In this document: in pieces, positions 1,684 to 53,535 of the stretch
How the letters are laid out: each line of letters opens with the position of its first letter
Numbering within the stretch: the stretch's first letter is position 1
NCBI RefSeq assembly: GCF_009914755.1
Contig: NC_060931.1
Length of the DNA: 64,000 nt
Strand: one strand, 5' to 3'
Source: the human T2T-CHM13v2.0 reference genome, Homo sapiens
Notes under the pieces: model-generated
What the model was told of the DNA's origin: nothing
Seen by the model: the letters and a program-made list of their open reading frames with translations, nothing else
The model's database searches: none
Translations under genes and position numbers: made by a program

Positions 1684-2044
1684 ATTTAAATGAAAGGTCT
1701 AGGTTAATTCCATAGTAGTATGGGACACAGAATTACTTTCAGCTGGGAAGAAGGTGGAAATCAAGGCTGGCTTCCTGGGGGTGGTGCTGTCCAAGGTGTT
1801 TGAACCAGAGCAACTCCATCTTGAATAGGGGCTGGTAGAAATAAGGCTGAGACCTACTGGGCTGCATTCCTAGGAGGTTAGGCATTCTAGTCACAGAATG
1901 AGATAGGAGGTCAGCACAAAATACAGGTCACAAAGACCTTACTGATGAAACAGGATGCAATAAAAAAAGCTACCCAAAGTCCACCAAAACCAAGATGGTG
2001 ATGAGAGTGACATCTGGTCATCCTCACTGCTCATTAAATATGAA

Positions 2045-3597
2045 TCATAATACATTATACATTAGCATTATATATATAATATATAATTGTGTATAATTAT
2101 ATTATGTACAATATATTATATATACAATTATATATAATTATATCGTATATTAATATAACTGTATTATATATTAATTATATATACAATTATATATAATTAT
2201 ATTATATATTAATATAATTGTATTATATATTAATTATATATACAATTATATATAATTGCATATATATAATATATATTACATATATTATGTAATTTATATT
2301 ATATATATATTTTATATTATATTATTATTACATATATATAATTATATATGTATAACATATATATAATATGTAATTATATATACAATTATATATAATTATA
2401 TTATATATTAATATATAATATAATTATATATGCAATTATATATAATTATATTATATTAATATATAATATCATTATATATACAATTATATATAATTATATT
2501 ATATTATATATATAATATTATATATAATATTATATTATAATTATATAATATAATTATATATACAATTATATATGATATATTTTATTATATATATAATATT
2601 ATATATAATATTATATTATGATTATATAATATAATTATATATAATTATATAATATTACCGTATAATATAATTATATATACAATTATATATAATTATATTA
2701 TATTACTATATAATATAATTATATATACAATTATATATAATTATATAGTAATATATAATATAATTATATATACAATTATATATAATTATATTATATAGTG
2801 ATATATAATATAATTATATATACAATTATATATAATTATATTATATAGTATTATATAATATAATTATATATACAATTATATATAATTACATATTATATAA
2901 TACTATATAATGTAATTATATATAATTATATTATATACAATATATAAATATATATAATATAATTATATTATATATAATATGAAATATATATTATATGTAA
3001 CATAATTACATTATACATAACATATTATATATTATATATTATATCATTACATATATTATATATAACATATTATATCATTACATATATTATATATAATATA
3101 TTATATCATTACATATATTATATATAATATATTATATCATTACATATATCATATATAATATACTATATATGTAATGCTAATATATAATGTATTATGATTC
3201 ACATTTAATGAGCAGTGAGGATGACCAGACGTCACTCTCATCACCATCTTGGTTTTGGTGGGCTTTGGGTAGCTTTTTTAAATAATATATATTATATTAT
3301 ATATTATATAACATGTATATTATATATATAATATATAATATAATATATAATATATTACATATAATATATGTAATATATTATTTATATTATATATAATATA
3401 TAAAATATAATATATAATATATTATATTATAAAATATATAGTATATTATTATATTATATATCATATATAATATTATTTATATTATATATCATATATAATA
3501 TTATTTATATTATATATCATATATAATATTATTTATATTATATATATTATTTATATTATATATATTGTATATAATATTATTTATATTATATATATAT
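2045..3597. repeat. Large (TA)-rich low-complexity/minisatellite tract, containing an inverted MER41 segment at 3172-3280
   Basis: Almost pure A/T with recurring units such as ATATAATATAATTATATATACAATTATATATAATTAT. Confidence 0.95.
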
Positions 3598-3860
3598 GGC
3601 ACAAAGTCAGCTCACTGCAACCTCCGCCTCCCCAGTTCAAGCGATTCTTCTGCCTCAGCCTCCCGAGTAGCTGGGACTACAGGCGTGTGCCACCATGCCA
3701 GGCTAATTTTTGTATTTTGTACTTTGTATTTTGTATTTTTAGTAGAGACAGGGTTTCACCATCTTGGCCAGGCTGATCTCAAACTCCTGACCACAAAAGA
3801 CCCACGCACCTCGGCCTCCCAAAGTGTTGGGATTACAGGCATGAGCCACTGCACCTGACC
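3598..3860 (-). mobile_element. AluS lacking its 3' end and polyA
   Basis: Reverse Alu begins at TGGCACAAAGTCAGCTCACTGC directly after the AT tract; no poly(T). Confidence 0.9.
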
Positions 3861-4497
3861 TATTCCTTTACTTTTTTAATAAACTTGCTTTCATTTTATT
3901 CTATGGACTTGCCCTGAATTCTTTCTGGTGAAAGATCCAAGAACCCTCTCTTGCAGGTCTGGATCAGAGCCCTTTCCAGTTAACAGTGCCATTCGATTGA
4001 AACCATGAAGGATACAATACACTGTTATTTAAATGTGTACTTCTCTATGGCATGGACAGTATATTCTCTTTTCACTCCTTCCCTCACCATTACAATGCCA
4101 GCCCCCAGCATAGGGGTTTTAGCCTTTGGTAAAAAAATCCCTTTGGTAAAGTCACAAAGTCATGGAATTTTACATTTGAAAGAGACCTCAGATAGCAGCT
4201 AGTTCAACTTCTTTGTTTTACAAGCAATTAGATTGTACTTCATTTTAAAGGAATTCAAGCATAAAGGAAAGAAGGCAGATTTTTGACCTAGAGGTGTCTT
4301 CAGGCAATCCTGTCAACCTTTGTGGGCCTCAGGTGTTTTATATGTAAAACAAGGGCACAGTTACTGCCTGAGGACAGTGGGTAAACCTGGGAGCCACCCC
4401 TTTTAGGTGACAACGTGGATTCTTGTATCATTCTCCTTTTAAAGTCTGAAGAACATTGGAAGTTTGGACAAAGCTTGCTTAATCTTATAAGTTATCC

Positions 4498-4588
4498 AAA
4501 AAAAAAAAAAAAGGTAGAAAAGAGGGAAGGAAGGAAGGAAGGAAGAAGGAAGGGAAGGAGGGAGGGGGGAGGGAGGGAAGGAAGGAAG
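4498..4588. repeat. A/GA-rich simple repeat (GGAA-type)
   Basis: polyA then GAAG/GGAG repeats. Confidence 0.9.
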
Positions 4589-4638
4589 CTTGTGCGTTAT
4601 GAGAAAAAGTGCACAAACTTGGAGAAACTATGCAAGAG

Positions 4639-51198: not shown

Positions 51199-51464
51199 TT
51201 TTTTTTTTTTTTAAAGCAGGTGACCATTGAGCAGAGAGCATAATCAGGTGAAGGAGTGAGCCACAAGAGCTGAGAACCATGCGAAGACCTGCAGAAAGAC
51301 CATCTAAAAACCAAAGGAAGAGACTAAGCAAATCCAGCCTAGTTTTGAAGACCACACCCTTACCCAGCAGTCAGGGAACCAAGGAGCCACGCTGAGGTCA
51401 GTGCAAAACCAGGAGCACGGTGACCCAGGGCCTCTGTGATGACAGCCTTTAAAGACAGAAGGAG

Positions 51465-51763
51465 GACTGGATGTGGTGGCTCACTCCTGTAATCCCAGCA
51501 GTTTGGGAGGCTGAGGAGGGCAGATCACTTGAGGTCAGGAGTTTGAGACCAGCCTGGCCAATATGGCAAAAGCCTGTCTCTATTAAAAATACAAAAATTA
51601 GCCGGGCGTGGTGGCGCACGCCTGTAATCTCAGCTACTCAGGAGGCTGAGGCAGGAGAATTGCTTGAACCTGGAAGGTGGAGGCTGCCGTGAGCCGAGAT
51701 TGTGCCACTGCACTCCAGCCTGGGTGACAGAGCAAGACCTTGACTCAAAAAAAAAAAAAAAAA
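51465..51763 (+). mobile_element. AluS
   Basis: Full Alu plus polyA. Confidence 0.93.
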
Positions 51764-52286
51764 AGATGGAAGGTGGGAGAGATTGGGCCTCCTGCTGCTC
51801 AGCTTTGAGTGAGATGAGCAAAGGGAATTTACCGCAGGATTTGGGAGAATGCAGATGGTTGCTGATTTTGGCAAGAGCAGTCTCTATCAGTGATGCAGAC
51901 AAGAACCTGACTGTTGTGGGTTTAAGGGAGACTGTGAGGCAAGTAAGTGGAGATGGCAAAGGCAGACAACTTTGCGGAGGAATAAGGAGCAGAGAAATGG
52001 GGTGATGGCCGGAGGGGATCCCAGGCCTTAGGATGGGCATTGTTTTTAAAGATGTAAGCTGTGTAACACCAGCATCTTCATCAGTGGACAGTAATGGCTC
52101 TGGAAAGAGTGAGAAAGCCCAGAGTGAAGAGGAAATAGTCATTGCAGGAAGGGCTGTGGTCTAGTGGTGGTTCTCCTTCCCTCTTTACAGAGGGGATGGA
52201 GCAGTCTTGCACCTGACTAAGACATTTGTCTTAGAGATCTTAGAGGTATGAGAGAGGATGTTGAGCTGGAAACAATGGGTGATGGA

Positions 52287-52447
52287 TGTTTTAGTCCGTT
52301 TTCACACTGCTATAAAGAACTACCTAAGACTGGGTAATTTATGAAGACAAGTGGTTTCATTGATTCACAGTTCCACAGGCTTAACAGGAGGCATGACTGG
52401 GGGACTCGGGAAATTTACAATCATGGCAGAAGGCAAAGAGGAAGCAA
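52287..52447 (-). mobile_element. THE1 fragment (duplicated copy of the 53163 element junction)
   Basis: Shares ~45 bp of non-LTR flank with the 53163 LTR. Confidence 0.8.
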
Positions 52448-53162
52448 GCTGACAGGACATCAGCTTCTGTTTGGATACAACCAGTGATGGCGAGCTCACT
52501 AGCTACCCAGGCAGTCCTTTTCATTATCGGGTAGCTCTAACAGACACATCAGCTGCATAGGCATCCTTGCAATTTTCCACATTTGCCTTTGAGAGGTGCA
52601 TGAGTAGGATCCTCTCTGTAAAGAGGGAAGGCAGAGAACATGTGTAAAATGCAGCAAGGCAAGTAGATTAGATGGTGCCAAGATGGTGTGATCCTTCCAC
52701 TGCTTTTATTTTCTCAGTAAAATATAAATTCAGGACATTCTGAGAAGAGGCAGGATATGAGAAGTTGGAGGATGTGAGAAAATTGACTCTGGAAATGTAA
52801 GAGGACCCCTTGGTATTGCTGAGGTTTGACGTGGGAATTGTAGTCATCCATTTAAAGTGAGATTTGTCAACACTGTGGTGGGTTGTCTTCAGCTATATTC
52901 AACTGCTGGGGCACAGGGCAGAGGTTGAAAGTTTAGTTGTTTTCCCAGGAAATTAAGATGGAAGGAAAGAGAAACAGGCTAGTGAAGAATGTGAGCAAGA
53001 GAGTGATGACAAGCCTGGAGGGTGGAATCTAAACAGCACCAGGAAGGAAGGGAGGACACTGGAGGTATAACAGAAAAGTGGCAAAGTCAATGGATTGGAG
53101 GGCTCAATGGTGTCAAAATAGAGGTATGAGAGGACATTGAGCTGGAAATAATGGGTGGTGGG

Positions 53163-53535
53163 TGTTTAGTCCGTTTTCAGGCTGCTATAAAGAACTACCT
53201 GAGACTGGGTAATTTATGAAGAAAAGAGGTTTAATTGACTCACAGTTTCACGTGGCTGGAGAGGCCTCAGGAAACTTACAATCATGGCAGAAAGCAAAAG
53301 GGAAGCAAACATGTCCTTCGTCACATGGCAGCAGGAGAGAGACAGAGAGCAAAGGGGGAAGTGCCACCTGCTTTTAAACAACCAGATCTCATGAGAACTC
53401 ACTCCCTATCATGAGAACAGCAAGGGGGATGTTTACCCCAATGATCCAATCACCTCCCACCAGGCCCCTCCTCGACAGATGAAGATTACAATTCCACATG
53501 AGATTTGGGTGGGGACACTGAGCCAAACCATACCG
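53163..53535 (-). mobile_element. THE1C/D solo LTR
   Basis: TAGTCCGTTTTCA..GCTATAAAGAAC...GAGCCAAACCATA; TSD (G/A)TGGG. Confidence 0.88.

What the first reader, a model, noticed from the sequence alone, without database searches (positions are those of the whole stretch)
1961..53308. Recurrent locally templated insertions: five independent short-range copy-paste events in 64 kb
Seen in sequence: six segments in five events are each a 40-265 bp copy of DNA 0.4-2.7 kb away, inserted into an older repeat without a TSD or polyA. They are 3172-3280 (inverted, from 1961-2070), 9231-9494 (from ~11900-12178), 47653-47743 (inverted, from ~48805-48887), 48477-48627 (from 49081-49231), and 52175-52214 (inverted, from 52594-52631) plus 52241-52447 (from 53119-53308). 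Identities differ (about 96% vs 87% for the two I counted), so the events are of different ages. Established: polymerase-theta end joining and FoSTeS/MMBIR template switching leave templated insertions with microhomology and hairpins. Inference: this is a fossil record of repeated germline break repair by local template capture, possibly a persistent fragile region; three events involve MER41 LTRs. Repeat maskers would hide these inside fragmented TE calls.
Basis: partly seen in the sequence, partly recalled or inferred. Interest (0 to 1): 0.8.

Follow-up and report, generated by a model that had tools for sequence, protein, structure and literature searches.

The report
Old short local copy-paste repair scars
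Most of the claimed segments are real short copies of DNA from 0.6 to 2.7 kb away, pasted in during ancient break repair; this kind of scar was catalogued in the human genome in 2009, and an unusual local excess could not be shown.

Summary
Four of the six claimed segments are genuine local DNA-level copies:
- E1: 3164-3279, an inverted copy of 1963-2078, 96% identical.
- E2: 9233-9495, copied from 11919-12178.
- E4: 48477-48627, copied from 49081-49231.
- E5b: 52241-52447, copied from 53119-53308.

Each is either unique in the genome apart from its partner, crosses a transposon boundary into unique flank, or is much closer to its partner than to any family member.

Copies of the interrupted repeats elsewhere in the genome give empty sites for E2, E3 and E4. 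There is no target-site duplication and no polyA, and 5-6 bp are lost at E2 and E3.

E3 (47653-47740) is a real 88-bp LTR-fragment insertion, but at least 39 LTRs elsewhere match it better than the nearby LTR does. E5a rests on a 23-nt inverted match.

The events fit "repair-mediated duplications" (Pace et al. 2009, PMC2671141): 824 proximal cases in human, median 147 bp, mostly under 3 kb away.

Enrichment is not shown. My pipeline kept 3 events in 64 kb against 2 in 140 kb of random control DNA (one-sided p about 0.18).

E2 to E5 have the same substitution divergence (about 0.10); only E1 is younger.

Three acceptor sites lie in hairpin-prone AT-rich or inverted-repeat DNA, which is a modest new lead.

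The parts
1963..2078 (+). E1 donor: native part of LTR-A plus the first bases of the AT-rich array
   Evidence: Family copies match query positions 1-95 (two reach 106). The local inverted copy matches 1-116 at 96%.
3164..3279 (-). E1 copy: an inverted 116-bp copy lying inside the AT-rich array
   Evidence: 5 mismatches in 116, no gaps.
2079..3597 (.). AT-rich tandem array, split by the E1 copy. It abuts the tail side of an antisense Alu (3598-3860) and replaces about 190 bp of LTR-A.
   Evidence: The inverted and direct alignment scores of the core are equal (469 against 473), so palindromy of the core cannot be shown.
9233..9495 (+). E2 copy: 263-bp insertion in an older repeat. It holds an 18-mer minisatellite, about 30 bp of unique DNA and about 12 nt of the start of an LTR.
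11919..12178 (+). E2 donor: minisatellite array 11859-12150, unique junction, and the start of an old LTR-like repeat at about 12166
47653..47740 (-). E3: 88-bp internal fragment from the 3' part of an LTR, lacking the LTR terminus. It is inserted in an older repeat and replaces about 6 bp.
48806..48886 (+). Candidate local donor of E3 (3' end of LTR-D). Not demonstrated.
   Evidence: 8 mismatches in 81 plus a 6-column gap. 39 other genomic copies match better.
48405..48476 (.). AT-rich palindromic microsatellite on the left of the E4 copy. The site is a short native TATATA run of this LTR subfamily.
   Evidence: (DNA fold of exactly 48405-48476): -12.2 kcal/mol, z = -3.29, 2 of 200 shuffles fold as well. 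The insertion relative to paralog LTRs begins at about 48426.
48477..48627 (+). E4 copy, 151 bp
48628..48706 (.). AT-rich palindromic microsatellite on the right of the E4 copy
   Evidence: (DNA fold of 48628-48700): -13.7 kcal/mol, z = -4.48, 0 of 200 shuffles fold as well.
49081..49231 (+). E4 donor: unique DNA 184 bp beyond the end of LTR-D
52175..52197 (+). E5a, left arm of an inverted repeat (23 nt, 1 mismatch) whose partner is 52609-52631. The pair brackets the composite insert.
   Evidence: duplex energy -27.2 kcal/mol against -6.5 +/- 1.75 for 200 shuffles.
52241..52447 (+). E5b copy: 47 bp of unique flank plus about 160 bp of the start of an LTR
52449..52575 (+). 127-bp piece abutting E5b, with a single paralog on contig C17 (86%). 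Possibly a second donor of a chimeric insertion.
52609..52631 (-). E5a, right arm of the inverted repeat
53119..53308 (+). E5b donor: unique flank plus the start of a complete antisense LTR (about 53163-53536; recognised from memory as THE1/MST-like)
48091..48897 (+). LTR-D, the host of E4
1788..3985 (+). LTR-A: 5' part 1788 to about 2057 and 3' part 3862-3985, interrupted by the AT-rich array, the E1 copy and an Alu

Best explanation
These are fossil repair-mediated duplications. [quoted passage not shown] The newly made DNA was then joined to the other broken end.

Shown:
- The donor stays intact.
- The copy interrupts an older repeat.
- There is no polyA and no target-site duplication.
- 5-6 bp of the target are lost at E2 and E3.
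- The copies cross transposon boundaries, or are unique to the two local places.

Inferred:
- The break itself.
- Strand invasion or template switching.
- Release of the copied strand and end joining.

E5 may be a chimeric repair with several templates: an inverted snap-back piece, a donor 0.9 kb away, and a piece related to contig C17.

Three of the five acceptor sites lie in hairpin-prone DNA: two AT-rich arrays and one 23-nt inverted repeat. This suggests, but does not prove, that secondary structure caused the breaks.

E2 to E5 date to about the same epoch (K2P about 0.11). E1 is younger (0.045).
For: Local origin:
- E4 is unique to two places in 3.1 Gb.
- The 47-bp flank of E5b is unique to two places.
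- For the E2 insert, the only other match is the local donor, and the copy runs about 12 nt into a repeat that starts at about 12166.
- E1 is 96% identical to its partner over 116 nt, against at most 90% over at most 106 nt for the other 38 scored copies.

Insertion polarity and empty sites: E2, 8 of 8 paralogs; E3, 11 of 11; E4, about 30 of 39 scored paralog LTRs contiguous across the site.

Junctions: no polyA or target-site duplication, and small deletions.

Fit to the published class (Pace et al. 2009):
- 824 proximal duplications of at least 50 bp (mean 162, median 147, maximum 619 bp), donors within 5 kb.
- 753 of all 1,136 duplicons lie under 3 kb apart.
- None of the 39 proximal breakpoints inspected had a polyA tract.
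- Breakpoints show deletions, filler or microhomology.
- 20 acceptors are chimeras of two donors, 15 of them with a second donor on another chromosome.

Hairpins: DNA folds of the E4 flanks give z = -3.3 and -4.5. The E5 inverted repeat gives -27.2 kcal/mol against -6.5 for shuffles.

Ages.
Against: - The donor of E3 cannot be assigned: 39 genomic LTR copies are 89-95% identical, the local LTR only 84%.
- The flanks of E5 are not a recognisable repeat, and no empty site was found. Its polarity rests only on the LTR being partial in the copy and complete at the donor.
- Microhomology at readable junctions is 0-1 nt, so no positive signature of a particular pathway remains.
- The hairpin at the E2 site is significant in only 1 of 3 paralogs, and E3 has none.
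- The AT-rich palindromes around E4 and the E5 inverted repeat could be products of the repair rather than its cause.
- No orthologous primate sequence could be examined.
Confidence: 0.75

Rival explanations
1. The region is a persistent fragile site with a truly raised rate of locally templated repair.
For: My pipeline kept 3 events in 64 kb; with E1 and E3, found by hand, that makes five. All five lie in two stretches, 2-12 kb and 47.6-53.3 kb. Three acceptor sites are hairpin-prone. At the density of the Pace catalogue (824 per genome), 2 or more events in one 64-kb window is expected in only about 7 windows genome-wide.
Against: The same pipeline kept 2 events in 140 kb of random DNA (14 of 15 stretches used; L046 was dropped as satellite-like). 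That gives a rate ratio of about 3.3 and a one-sided p of 0.18; the variants tried ranged from 0.08 to 0.22. The control rate implies tens of thousands of such pairs genome-wide, so the catalogue density is a large underestimate. The window was chosen after the fact. Pace et al. report no tendency of these duplications to cluster. A 730-bp AT-rich array at 34267-34997 carries no insertion.
Confidence: 0.2
2. E3, E4 and E5, and perhaps E2, are scars of one or two complex multi-break episodes rather than independent events.
For: The substitution divergences are indistinguishable: 0.098, 0.099, 0.101 and 0.106. E3, E4 and E5 lie within 5.7 kb. The candidate donor of E3 lies between the acceptor and the donor of E4. 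E5 looks chimeric.
Against: The acceptor sites are separate, 0.7-3.6 kb apart, which is not what a single chain of template switches gives. Confidence intervals on divergence are wide, about 0.04 to 0.19. Pace et al. found most of these duplications to be old ("all primates") and the rate to have been higher before the hominids, so similar ages are expected anyway.
Confidence: 0.15
3. The similarities are ordinary transposon biology: independent insertions or fragments of the same families, or chance.
For: E3 is entirely LTR sequence and sits closer to the family than to the local LTR. The LTR part of E5b is 85-92% identical to family members, against 81% to the local donor. E5a is short and may lie in a conserved repeat core; that resemblance to MIR is recalled, not tested. 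The window holds four LTRs of this family.
Against: E4 has no other genomic copy. E2 and E5b include unique flank found only at the donor. E1 exceeds every family match in both identity and extent. E3 lacks the LTR terminus and any target-site duplication, and it replaces 6 bp, which is not how an integrase inserts an element.
Confidence: 0.05
4. E1 is the outer end of a fold-back inverted duplication, a palindrome of about 1.3 kb of the PATRR kind, and not a 116-bp insertion.
For: A single reverse-strand self-alignment spans 1963-3279 (80% over 1381 columns). The layout is an AT-rich centre with ends that are not AT-rich.
Against: Within the AT-rich core the inverted alignment scores no better than the direct one (469 against 473), or than either arm against its own reverse complement. 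Identity falls from 96 per 100 to 79 per 100 columns at the edge of the array.
Confidence: 0.25

Closest known systems
[quoted passage not shown]
   Same: Insertions of 50-619 bp inside older transposons. The donor is a sequence within 5 kb, mostly under 3 kb. There is no polyA. Breakpoints show small deletions, filler or microhomology. Some acceptors are chimeras of two donors. Most events are old ("all primates"), with 8-15% divergence between donor and acceptor in the rows of their Table S1 that I saw.
   Different: That catalogue required a unique donor and a cleanly annotated split transposon. E1 (in an AT-rich array), E2 (minisatellite), E3 (all LTR sequence) and E5b (part LTR) would be filtered out or missed. 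The paper's main text does not mention hairpins, palindromes, AT-rich DNA or fragile sites (0 occurrences each), and it reports no clustering. One Table S1 row may be E4: hg18 chr7:67,818,595-67,818,768, donor 150 bp, downstream, 12% divergence. However, its repeat label (AluJo) and spacing (577 against 454 bp) disagree, and I could not lift the coordinates over.
"Doublets": short paired duplications about 1 kb apart (Thomas et al. 2004, PNAS). Not held in the library; known to me from recall and from its description in Pace et al..
   Same: Short local non-tandem duplications that seem to arise by an insertion event.
   Different: Defined on near-exact matches under 100 bp. The pairs here are longer and 4-13% diverged.
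Templated insertions linked to MMBIR (Osia et al. 2021, NAR, PMC8421209; passages read)
   Same: Germline insertions templated from nearby DNA, sometimes from several templates. Before the larger insert arrived, E5a would have lain within about 50-80 bp of its inverted template.
   Different: Those events are inverted copies of templates within 100 bp, found in short reads. E2, E4 and E5b are direct copies from 0.6-2.7 kb away.
Palindromic AT-rich repeats (PATRRs) of 11q23, 22q11 and 17q11. Their features are recalled; only search listings were seen.
   Same: The E1 locus has an AT-rich centre with inverted ends that are not AT-rich.
   Different: Near-perfect palindromy of the core could not be shown. 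No link to translocations is known for this locus.

Membership tests
Repair-mediated duplication (Pace et al. 2009) | An insertion of at least 50 bp interrupts an older transposon whose two halves are otherwise contiguous | tested here: met
   E2: 8 of 8 paralogs. E3: 11 of 11. E4: about 30 of 39 scored paralogs. E1 lies in an AT-rich array inside an LTR. E5: no recognisable host repeat.
Repair-mediated duplication (Pace et al. 2009) | The inserted sequence is found at only one other place in the genome, within 5 kb on the same chromosome | tested here: met
   Met for E4, E2 and the unique flank of E5b. For E1 the best match is local. Not met for E3. Only the best 40 candidates are scored in each search.
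Repair-mediated duplication (Pace et al. 2009) | No polyA/T tract and no retrotransposon-type target-site duplication at the acceptor | tested here: met
   Junctions were read. The flanks of E1 and E4 are AT-rich arrays, where a target-site duplication cannot be judged.
Repair-mediated duplication (Pace et al. 2009) | Breakpoints carry a deletion, filler or microhomology | tested here: inconclusive
   About 5 bp lost at E2 and about 6 bp at E3. Possible filler at 52198-52240 and in the AT-rich flanks of E4. Microhomology is 0-1 nt, but the junctions have decayed by about 10%.
Repair-mediated duplication (Pace et al. 2009) | An orthologous empty site in an outgroup species | not testable with these tools
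   No primate genomes are available here. Paralogous repeat copies were used as a stand-in.
Palindromic AT-rich repeat (PATRR) | A near-perfect palindrome of several hundred bp | tested here: not met
   Core: inverted score 469 against direct score 473. Only the outer 116 bp are demonstrably inverted copies.
Polymerase-theta end joining with templated insertion | Short templated stretches next to the break, flanked by microhomology (recalled definition) | tested here: inconclusive
   The inserts are 88-263 nt and come from 0.6-2.7 kb away. Microhomology is 0-1 nt. Only E5a has the short, nearby, inverted character.
Retrotransposition or integrase-mediated LTR insertion (considered for E3 and E5b) | Complete element termini with a target-site duplication or a polyA tail | tested here: not met
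   E3 lacks the LTR terminus and replaces 6 bp. E5b carries 47 bp of the donor's unique flank.

The most novel reading that the evidence does not exclude
Acceptor sites of repair-mediated duplications are not random. They sit preferentially in hairpin-forming DNA: AT-rich palindromic microsatellites that grew from Alu tails or from native TATATA runs in LTRs, and short-spaced inverted repeats. Such sequences would then act as long-lived local break sources and leave small clusters of templated insertions. Here three same-age events lie within 5.7 kb, and one younger event lies in a 1.5-kb AT-rich array.
Probability: 0.2. Interest if true: 0.5.

Novelty: new member of a known kind. Interest (0 to 1): 0.27.

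Why it matters
It shows that a reader working from raw sequence can recover true repair-mediated duplications that repeat maskers hide.

It also suggests that the 2009 catalogue is a strong underestimate. Four of the five events here would fail its filters, and random control DNA gave about one comparable pair per 70 kb.

The only lead beyond the known class is the link between acceptor sites and hairpin-prone AT-rich or inverted-repeat DNA. It can be tested on the 824 catalogued cases. If it held, it would tie germline templated insertions to breakage caused by DNA secondary structure.

Tried and rejected
1. Palindromy of the whole 1963-3279 stretch. The single long reverse-strand hit is explained by the self-complementary makeup of the AT-rich array.

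2. A large random control (180 stretches were planned).

3. An empty site for E5 from the single C17 paralog. No left-flank homology was found: the best local score was 9, against a shuffle mean of 10.3.

4. A hairpin at the E2 acceptor. It looked good in one paralog (z = -3.0, -2.7) but was absent in two others (z = 0.08 and 0.64). About 3.5% of 600 random sites reach z of -2.5 or lower. I treat this as weak.

5. Two extra pairs kept by the pipeline in the window. The pair 11710-11755 / 12755-12710 is a 46-bp inverted pair that resembles MIR (recalled). The pair 17570-17814 / 19371-19134 also matches other places in the window. I did not count either as an event.

6. Homology between the two LTR pairs beyond the LTRs themselves: none found.

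Thomas et al. 2004 is not held.

8. The rate of \"dispersed duplications\" among polymorphic insertions (5 and 6 per genome in PMC9996862) uses a different definition and was not used as a rate.

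
Full report
**What was checked.** The window is human (T2T chr7:69,626,001-69,690,000). I compared it with itself, read the loci and searched the whole assembly with each segment and its flanks. 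Each such search scores only the best 40 first-look candidates, so all counts are lower bounds.

**Repeat landscape.** One ERV-type LTR family of about 560 bp occurs four times.
- LTR-A, plus strand: 1788 to about 2057, and 3862-3985.
- LTR-B, minus strand: 4733-5296.
- LTR-D, plus strand: 48091-48897, a different subfamily.
- LTR-E, minus strand: 50035-50595.

B and E are 87% identical over 564 columns. In LTR-A about 190 bp are replaced by a 1.5-kb AT-rich tandem array (2079-3597) that abuts the tail side of an antisense Alu.

**E1.** The reverse complement of 3164-3279 differs from 1963-2078 at 5 of 116 positions, with no gaps. The other 38 scored genomic family copies reach 82-90% and stop at query position 95 (two reach 106). 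The local pair is therefore both closer and longer, and it includes the junction with the AT-rich array.
- A reverse-strand self-alignment spans all of 1963-3279.
- In the AT-rich core, however, the inverted score (469) equals the direct score (473) and the score of each arm against its own reverse complement.
- Only the outer 116 bp are therefore demonstrably inverted copies. A fold-back origin is neither shown nor excluded.

**E2.** 9233-9495 interrupts an old repeat.
- At least 10 loci elsewhere have the two flanks adjacent, 2-7 bp apart.
- 8 of 8 aligned paralogs are uninterrupted at the site. About 5 bp are missing in the window, and there is no target-site duplication or polyA.
- The only other genomic match to the insert is 11919-12178.
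- The copied stretch is an 18-mer minisatellite, about 30 bp of unique DNA, and about 12 nt of an old LTR-like repeat. Family matches to that repeat mostly begin at window position 12166-12168. I recognised this repeat as MaLR-like from memory.

**E3.** 47653-47740 is an 88-bp insertion. 11 of 11 paralogs of the host repeat are contiguous there, and about 6 bp are replaced.
- It is an internal piece of the LTR's 3' region without the terminus, so it was not inserted by an integrase.
- 39 genomic LTRs match it at 89-95%, including LTR-B at 91%. LTR-D, 1.07 kb away, matches at only 84% (by substitutions alone, 8 of 81).
- Some of the better matches belong to LTR-D's own subfamily, so a local donor is possible.
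- Support for a local donor comes only from proximity and from one shared derived base.

**E4.** 48477-48627 and 49081-49231 are 87.4% identical without gaps, and they are the only two copies in the genome.
- About 30 of 39 scored paralog LTRs are contiguous across the site, where they carry only a short TATATA run.
- In LTR-D that run has become two AT-rich palindromic tracts that flank the copy.
- Each tract folds significantly better than shuffles: z = -3.29 (2 of 200 shuffles as good) and z = -4.48 (0 of 200).

**E5.** 52241-52447 matches 53119-53308.
- The first 47 bp are unique flank, found only at these two places.
- The rest is the start of an LTR that is complete at the donor. I recognised it as THE1/MST-like from memory.
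- The LTR part is 85-92% identical to family members but 81% to the donor. That fits an old copy in which both partners decayed; by substitutions alone, 20 of 189 differ.
- The flanks are not a recognisable repeat, so no empty site exists.
- Directly after the copy, 52449-52575 has a single paralog on contig C17 (86%). That homology begins exactly at the end of the copy and does not continue to the left. This is the pattern of a chimeric acceptor with a second donor on another chromosome, as Pace et al. describe.
- E5a is a 23-nt inverted match with 1 mismatch, 52175-52197 against 52609-52631. Its duplex energy is -27.2 kcal/mol against -6.5 +/- 1.75 for shuffles.
- The E5a pair brackets the composite insert. 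It could be a snap-back templated piece or an inverted repeat that was already there.

**Ages.** Substitution-only divergence:

| Event | Divergence (95% interval) |
|---|---|
| E1 | 0.043 (0.014-0.098) |
| E2 | 0.098 |
| E3 against LTR-D | 0.099 |
| E4 | 0.101 (0.126 in the gapless alignment) |
| E5b | 0.106 |

Only E1 differs in age. Such divergences also rule out an assembly duplication.

**Known class.** Pace et al. 2009 (PMC2671141; abstract and sections 6, 7, 8, 11 and 14 read, Table S1 searched) describe this phenomenon.
- They found 824 proximal repair-mediated duplications of at least 50 bp inside human transposons: mean 162, median 147, maximum 619 bp.
- Of all 1,136 duplicons in their set, 753 (66%) lie less than 3 kb apart.
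- None of the 39 proximal breakpoints they inspected had a polyA tract. Breakpoints carried deletions, filler or microhomology.
- 20 acceptors were chimeras of two donors.
- They interpret the events as synthesis-dependent strand annealing at double-strand breaks.
- They cite the \"doublets\" of Thomas et al. 2004, which the library does not hold.
- One Table S1 row may be E4: hg18 chr7:67,818,595, donor 150 bp, downstream, 12% divergence, present in all primates. Its AluJo label and 577-bp spacing do not match, and I could not lift the coordinates over.
- It is the only chr7 row between 67.4 and 67.99 Mb.

**Enrichment.** One automatic pipeline was applied to the window and to random DNA. It looks for self-matches at least 40 bp long and up to 3 kb apart. 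It drops AT-rich and low-complexity pairs, and pairs covered by matches elsewhere in the pooled data.
- In the window it formed 74 clusters and kept 8: E2, E4, E5b, three hits within tandem arrays, and two pairs that look like transposons.
- E1 (AT-rich surroundings) and E3 (all transposon sequence) are invisible to it.
- In 15 random 10-kb stretches it kept 1 pair in L045 (115 bp, 88.7%, also unique in the genome), 1 pair in L053 (63 bp, 96.8%), and 78 in L046, which I excluded as satellite-like.
- In 29 loci of about 3.2 kb fetched with the searches, it kept 2 weak pairs.
- Three in 64 kb against two in 140 kb gives a rate ratio of 3.3 and a one-sided p of 0.18. The variants tried ranged from 0.08 to 0.22.
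- The control rate implies tens of thousands of such pairs genome-wide, about fifty times the 2009 catalogue.
- With this little control DNA, and a window chosen after the fact, enrichment is not shown. More control DNA could not be fetched.

**Mechanism.**
- Shown: an intact donor, an interrupted host, no retrotransposition marks, small target deletions, and both orientations. E2, E4 and E5b are direct; E1, E3 and E5a are inverted.
- Inferred: a break or collapsed fork, copying primed on a nearby template, release of the new strand, sometimes a second template, and joining to the other end.
- Whether the copying was synthesis-dependent strand annealing, MMBIR or polymerase theta cannot be read from junctions that have decayed by 4-12% and show 0-1 nt of microhomology.
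- The size and distance of the copies fit the published class better than they fit the short, nearby templated insertions usually linked to polymerase theta. That description of polymerase theta events is recalled.

**New lead.** Three of the five acceptor sites lie in hairpin-prone DNA (E1, E4, E5). Support for E2 is weak (1 of 3 paralogs) and E3 has none. The main text of Pace et al. does not mention hairpins, palindromes, AT-rich DNA or fragile sites. I ran no search for other papers that link acceptor sites to hairpin-forming DNA.

Noticed in passing
window 1788-5296 and 48091-50595: Four LTRs of one ERV-type family lie in 64 kb, as two tail-to-tail pairs: A then B about 750 bp apart, and D then E about 1.14 kb apart. 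There is no homology between the pairs beyond the LTRs. A first-look count of 3083 family candidates would give about 0.06 per 64 kb. That count is a lower bound, so the excess is uncertain.
   Followed up: partly
window 34267-34997: A 730-bp AT-rich array starts directly at the A-tail of an Alu and carries no embedded insertion. Together with the array at 2079-3597 next to an Alu tail, this suggests that Alu tails seed such arrays.
   Followed up: partly
window 52449-52575; L026:1501-1627 (contig C17): A 127-bp stretch has exactly one paralog in the genome (86%). Its homology begins at the base after the E5b copy.
   Followed up: partly
window 35358-35708: An Alu carries an internal tandem duplication: period 173, 2.0 copies, 86% matches.
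   Followed up: no
window 11710-11755 and 12710-12755: A 46-bp inverted pair (87%) brackets the E2 donor region. It may be two old SINE fragments.
   Followed up: no
L045:8121-8235 and 9443-9556; L053:1051-1113 and 2462-2524: Random control stretches also hold short local duplicates. The L045 pair (115 bp, 88.7%) is unique to two places in the genome. The L053 pair (63 bp, 96.8%) sits next to A-rich Alu-type tails.
   Followed up: partly
L046 (contig C19:30584839-30594838): A random control stretch is full of diverged, interleaved direct and inverted repeats at 65-83% identity, giving 78 kept pairs. It looks like a satellite or a complex tandem region and was excluded from the control.
   Followed up: no
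window 38232-38981: A 750-bp GATA-type microsatellite array.
   Followed up: no
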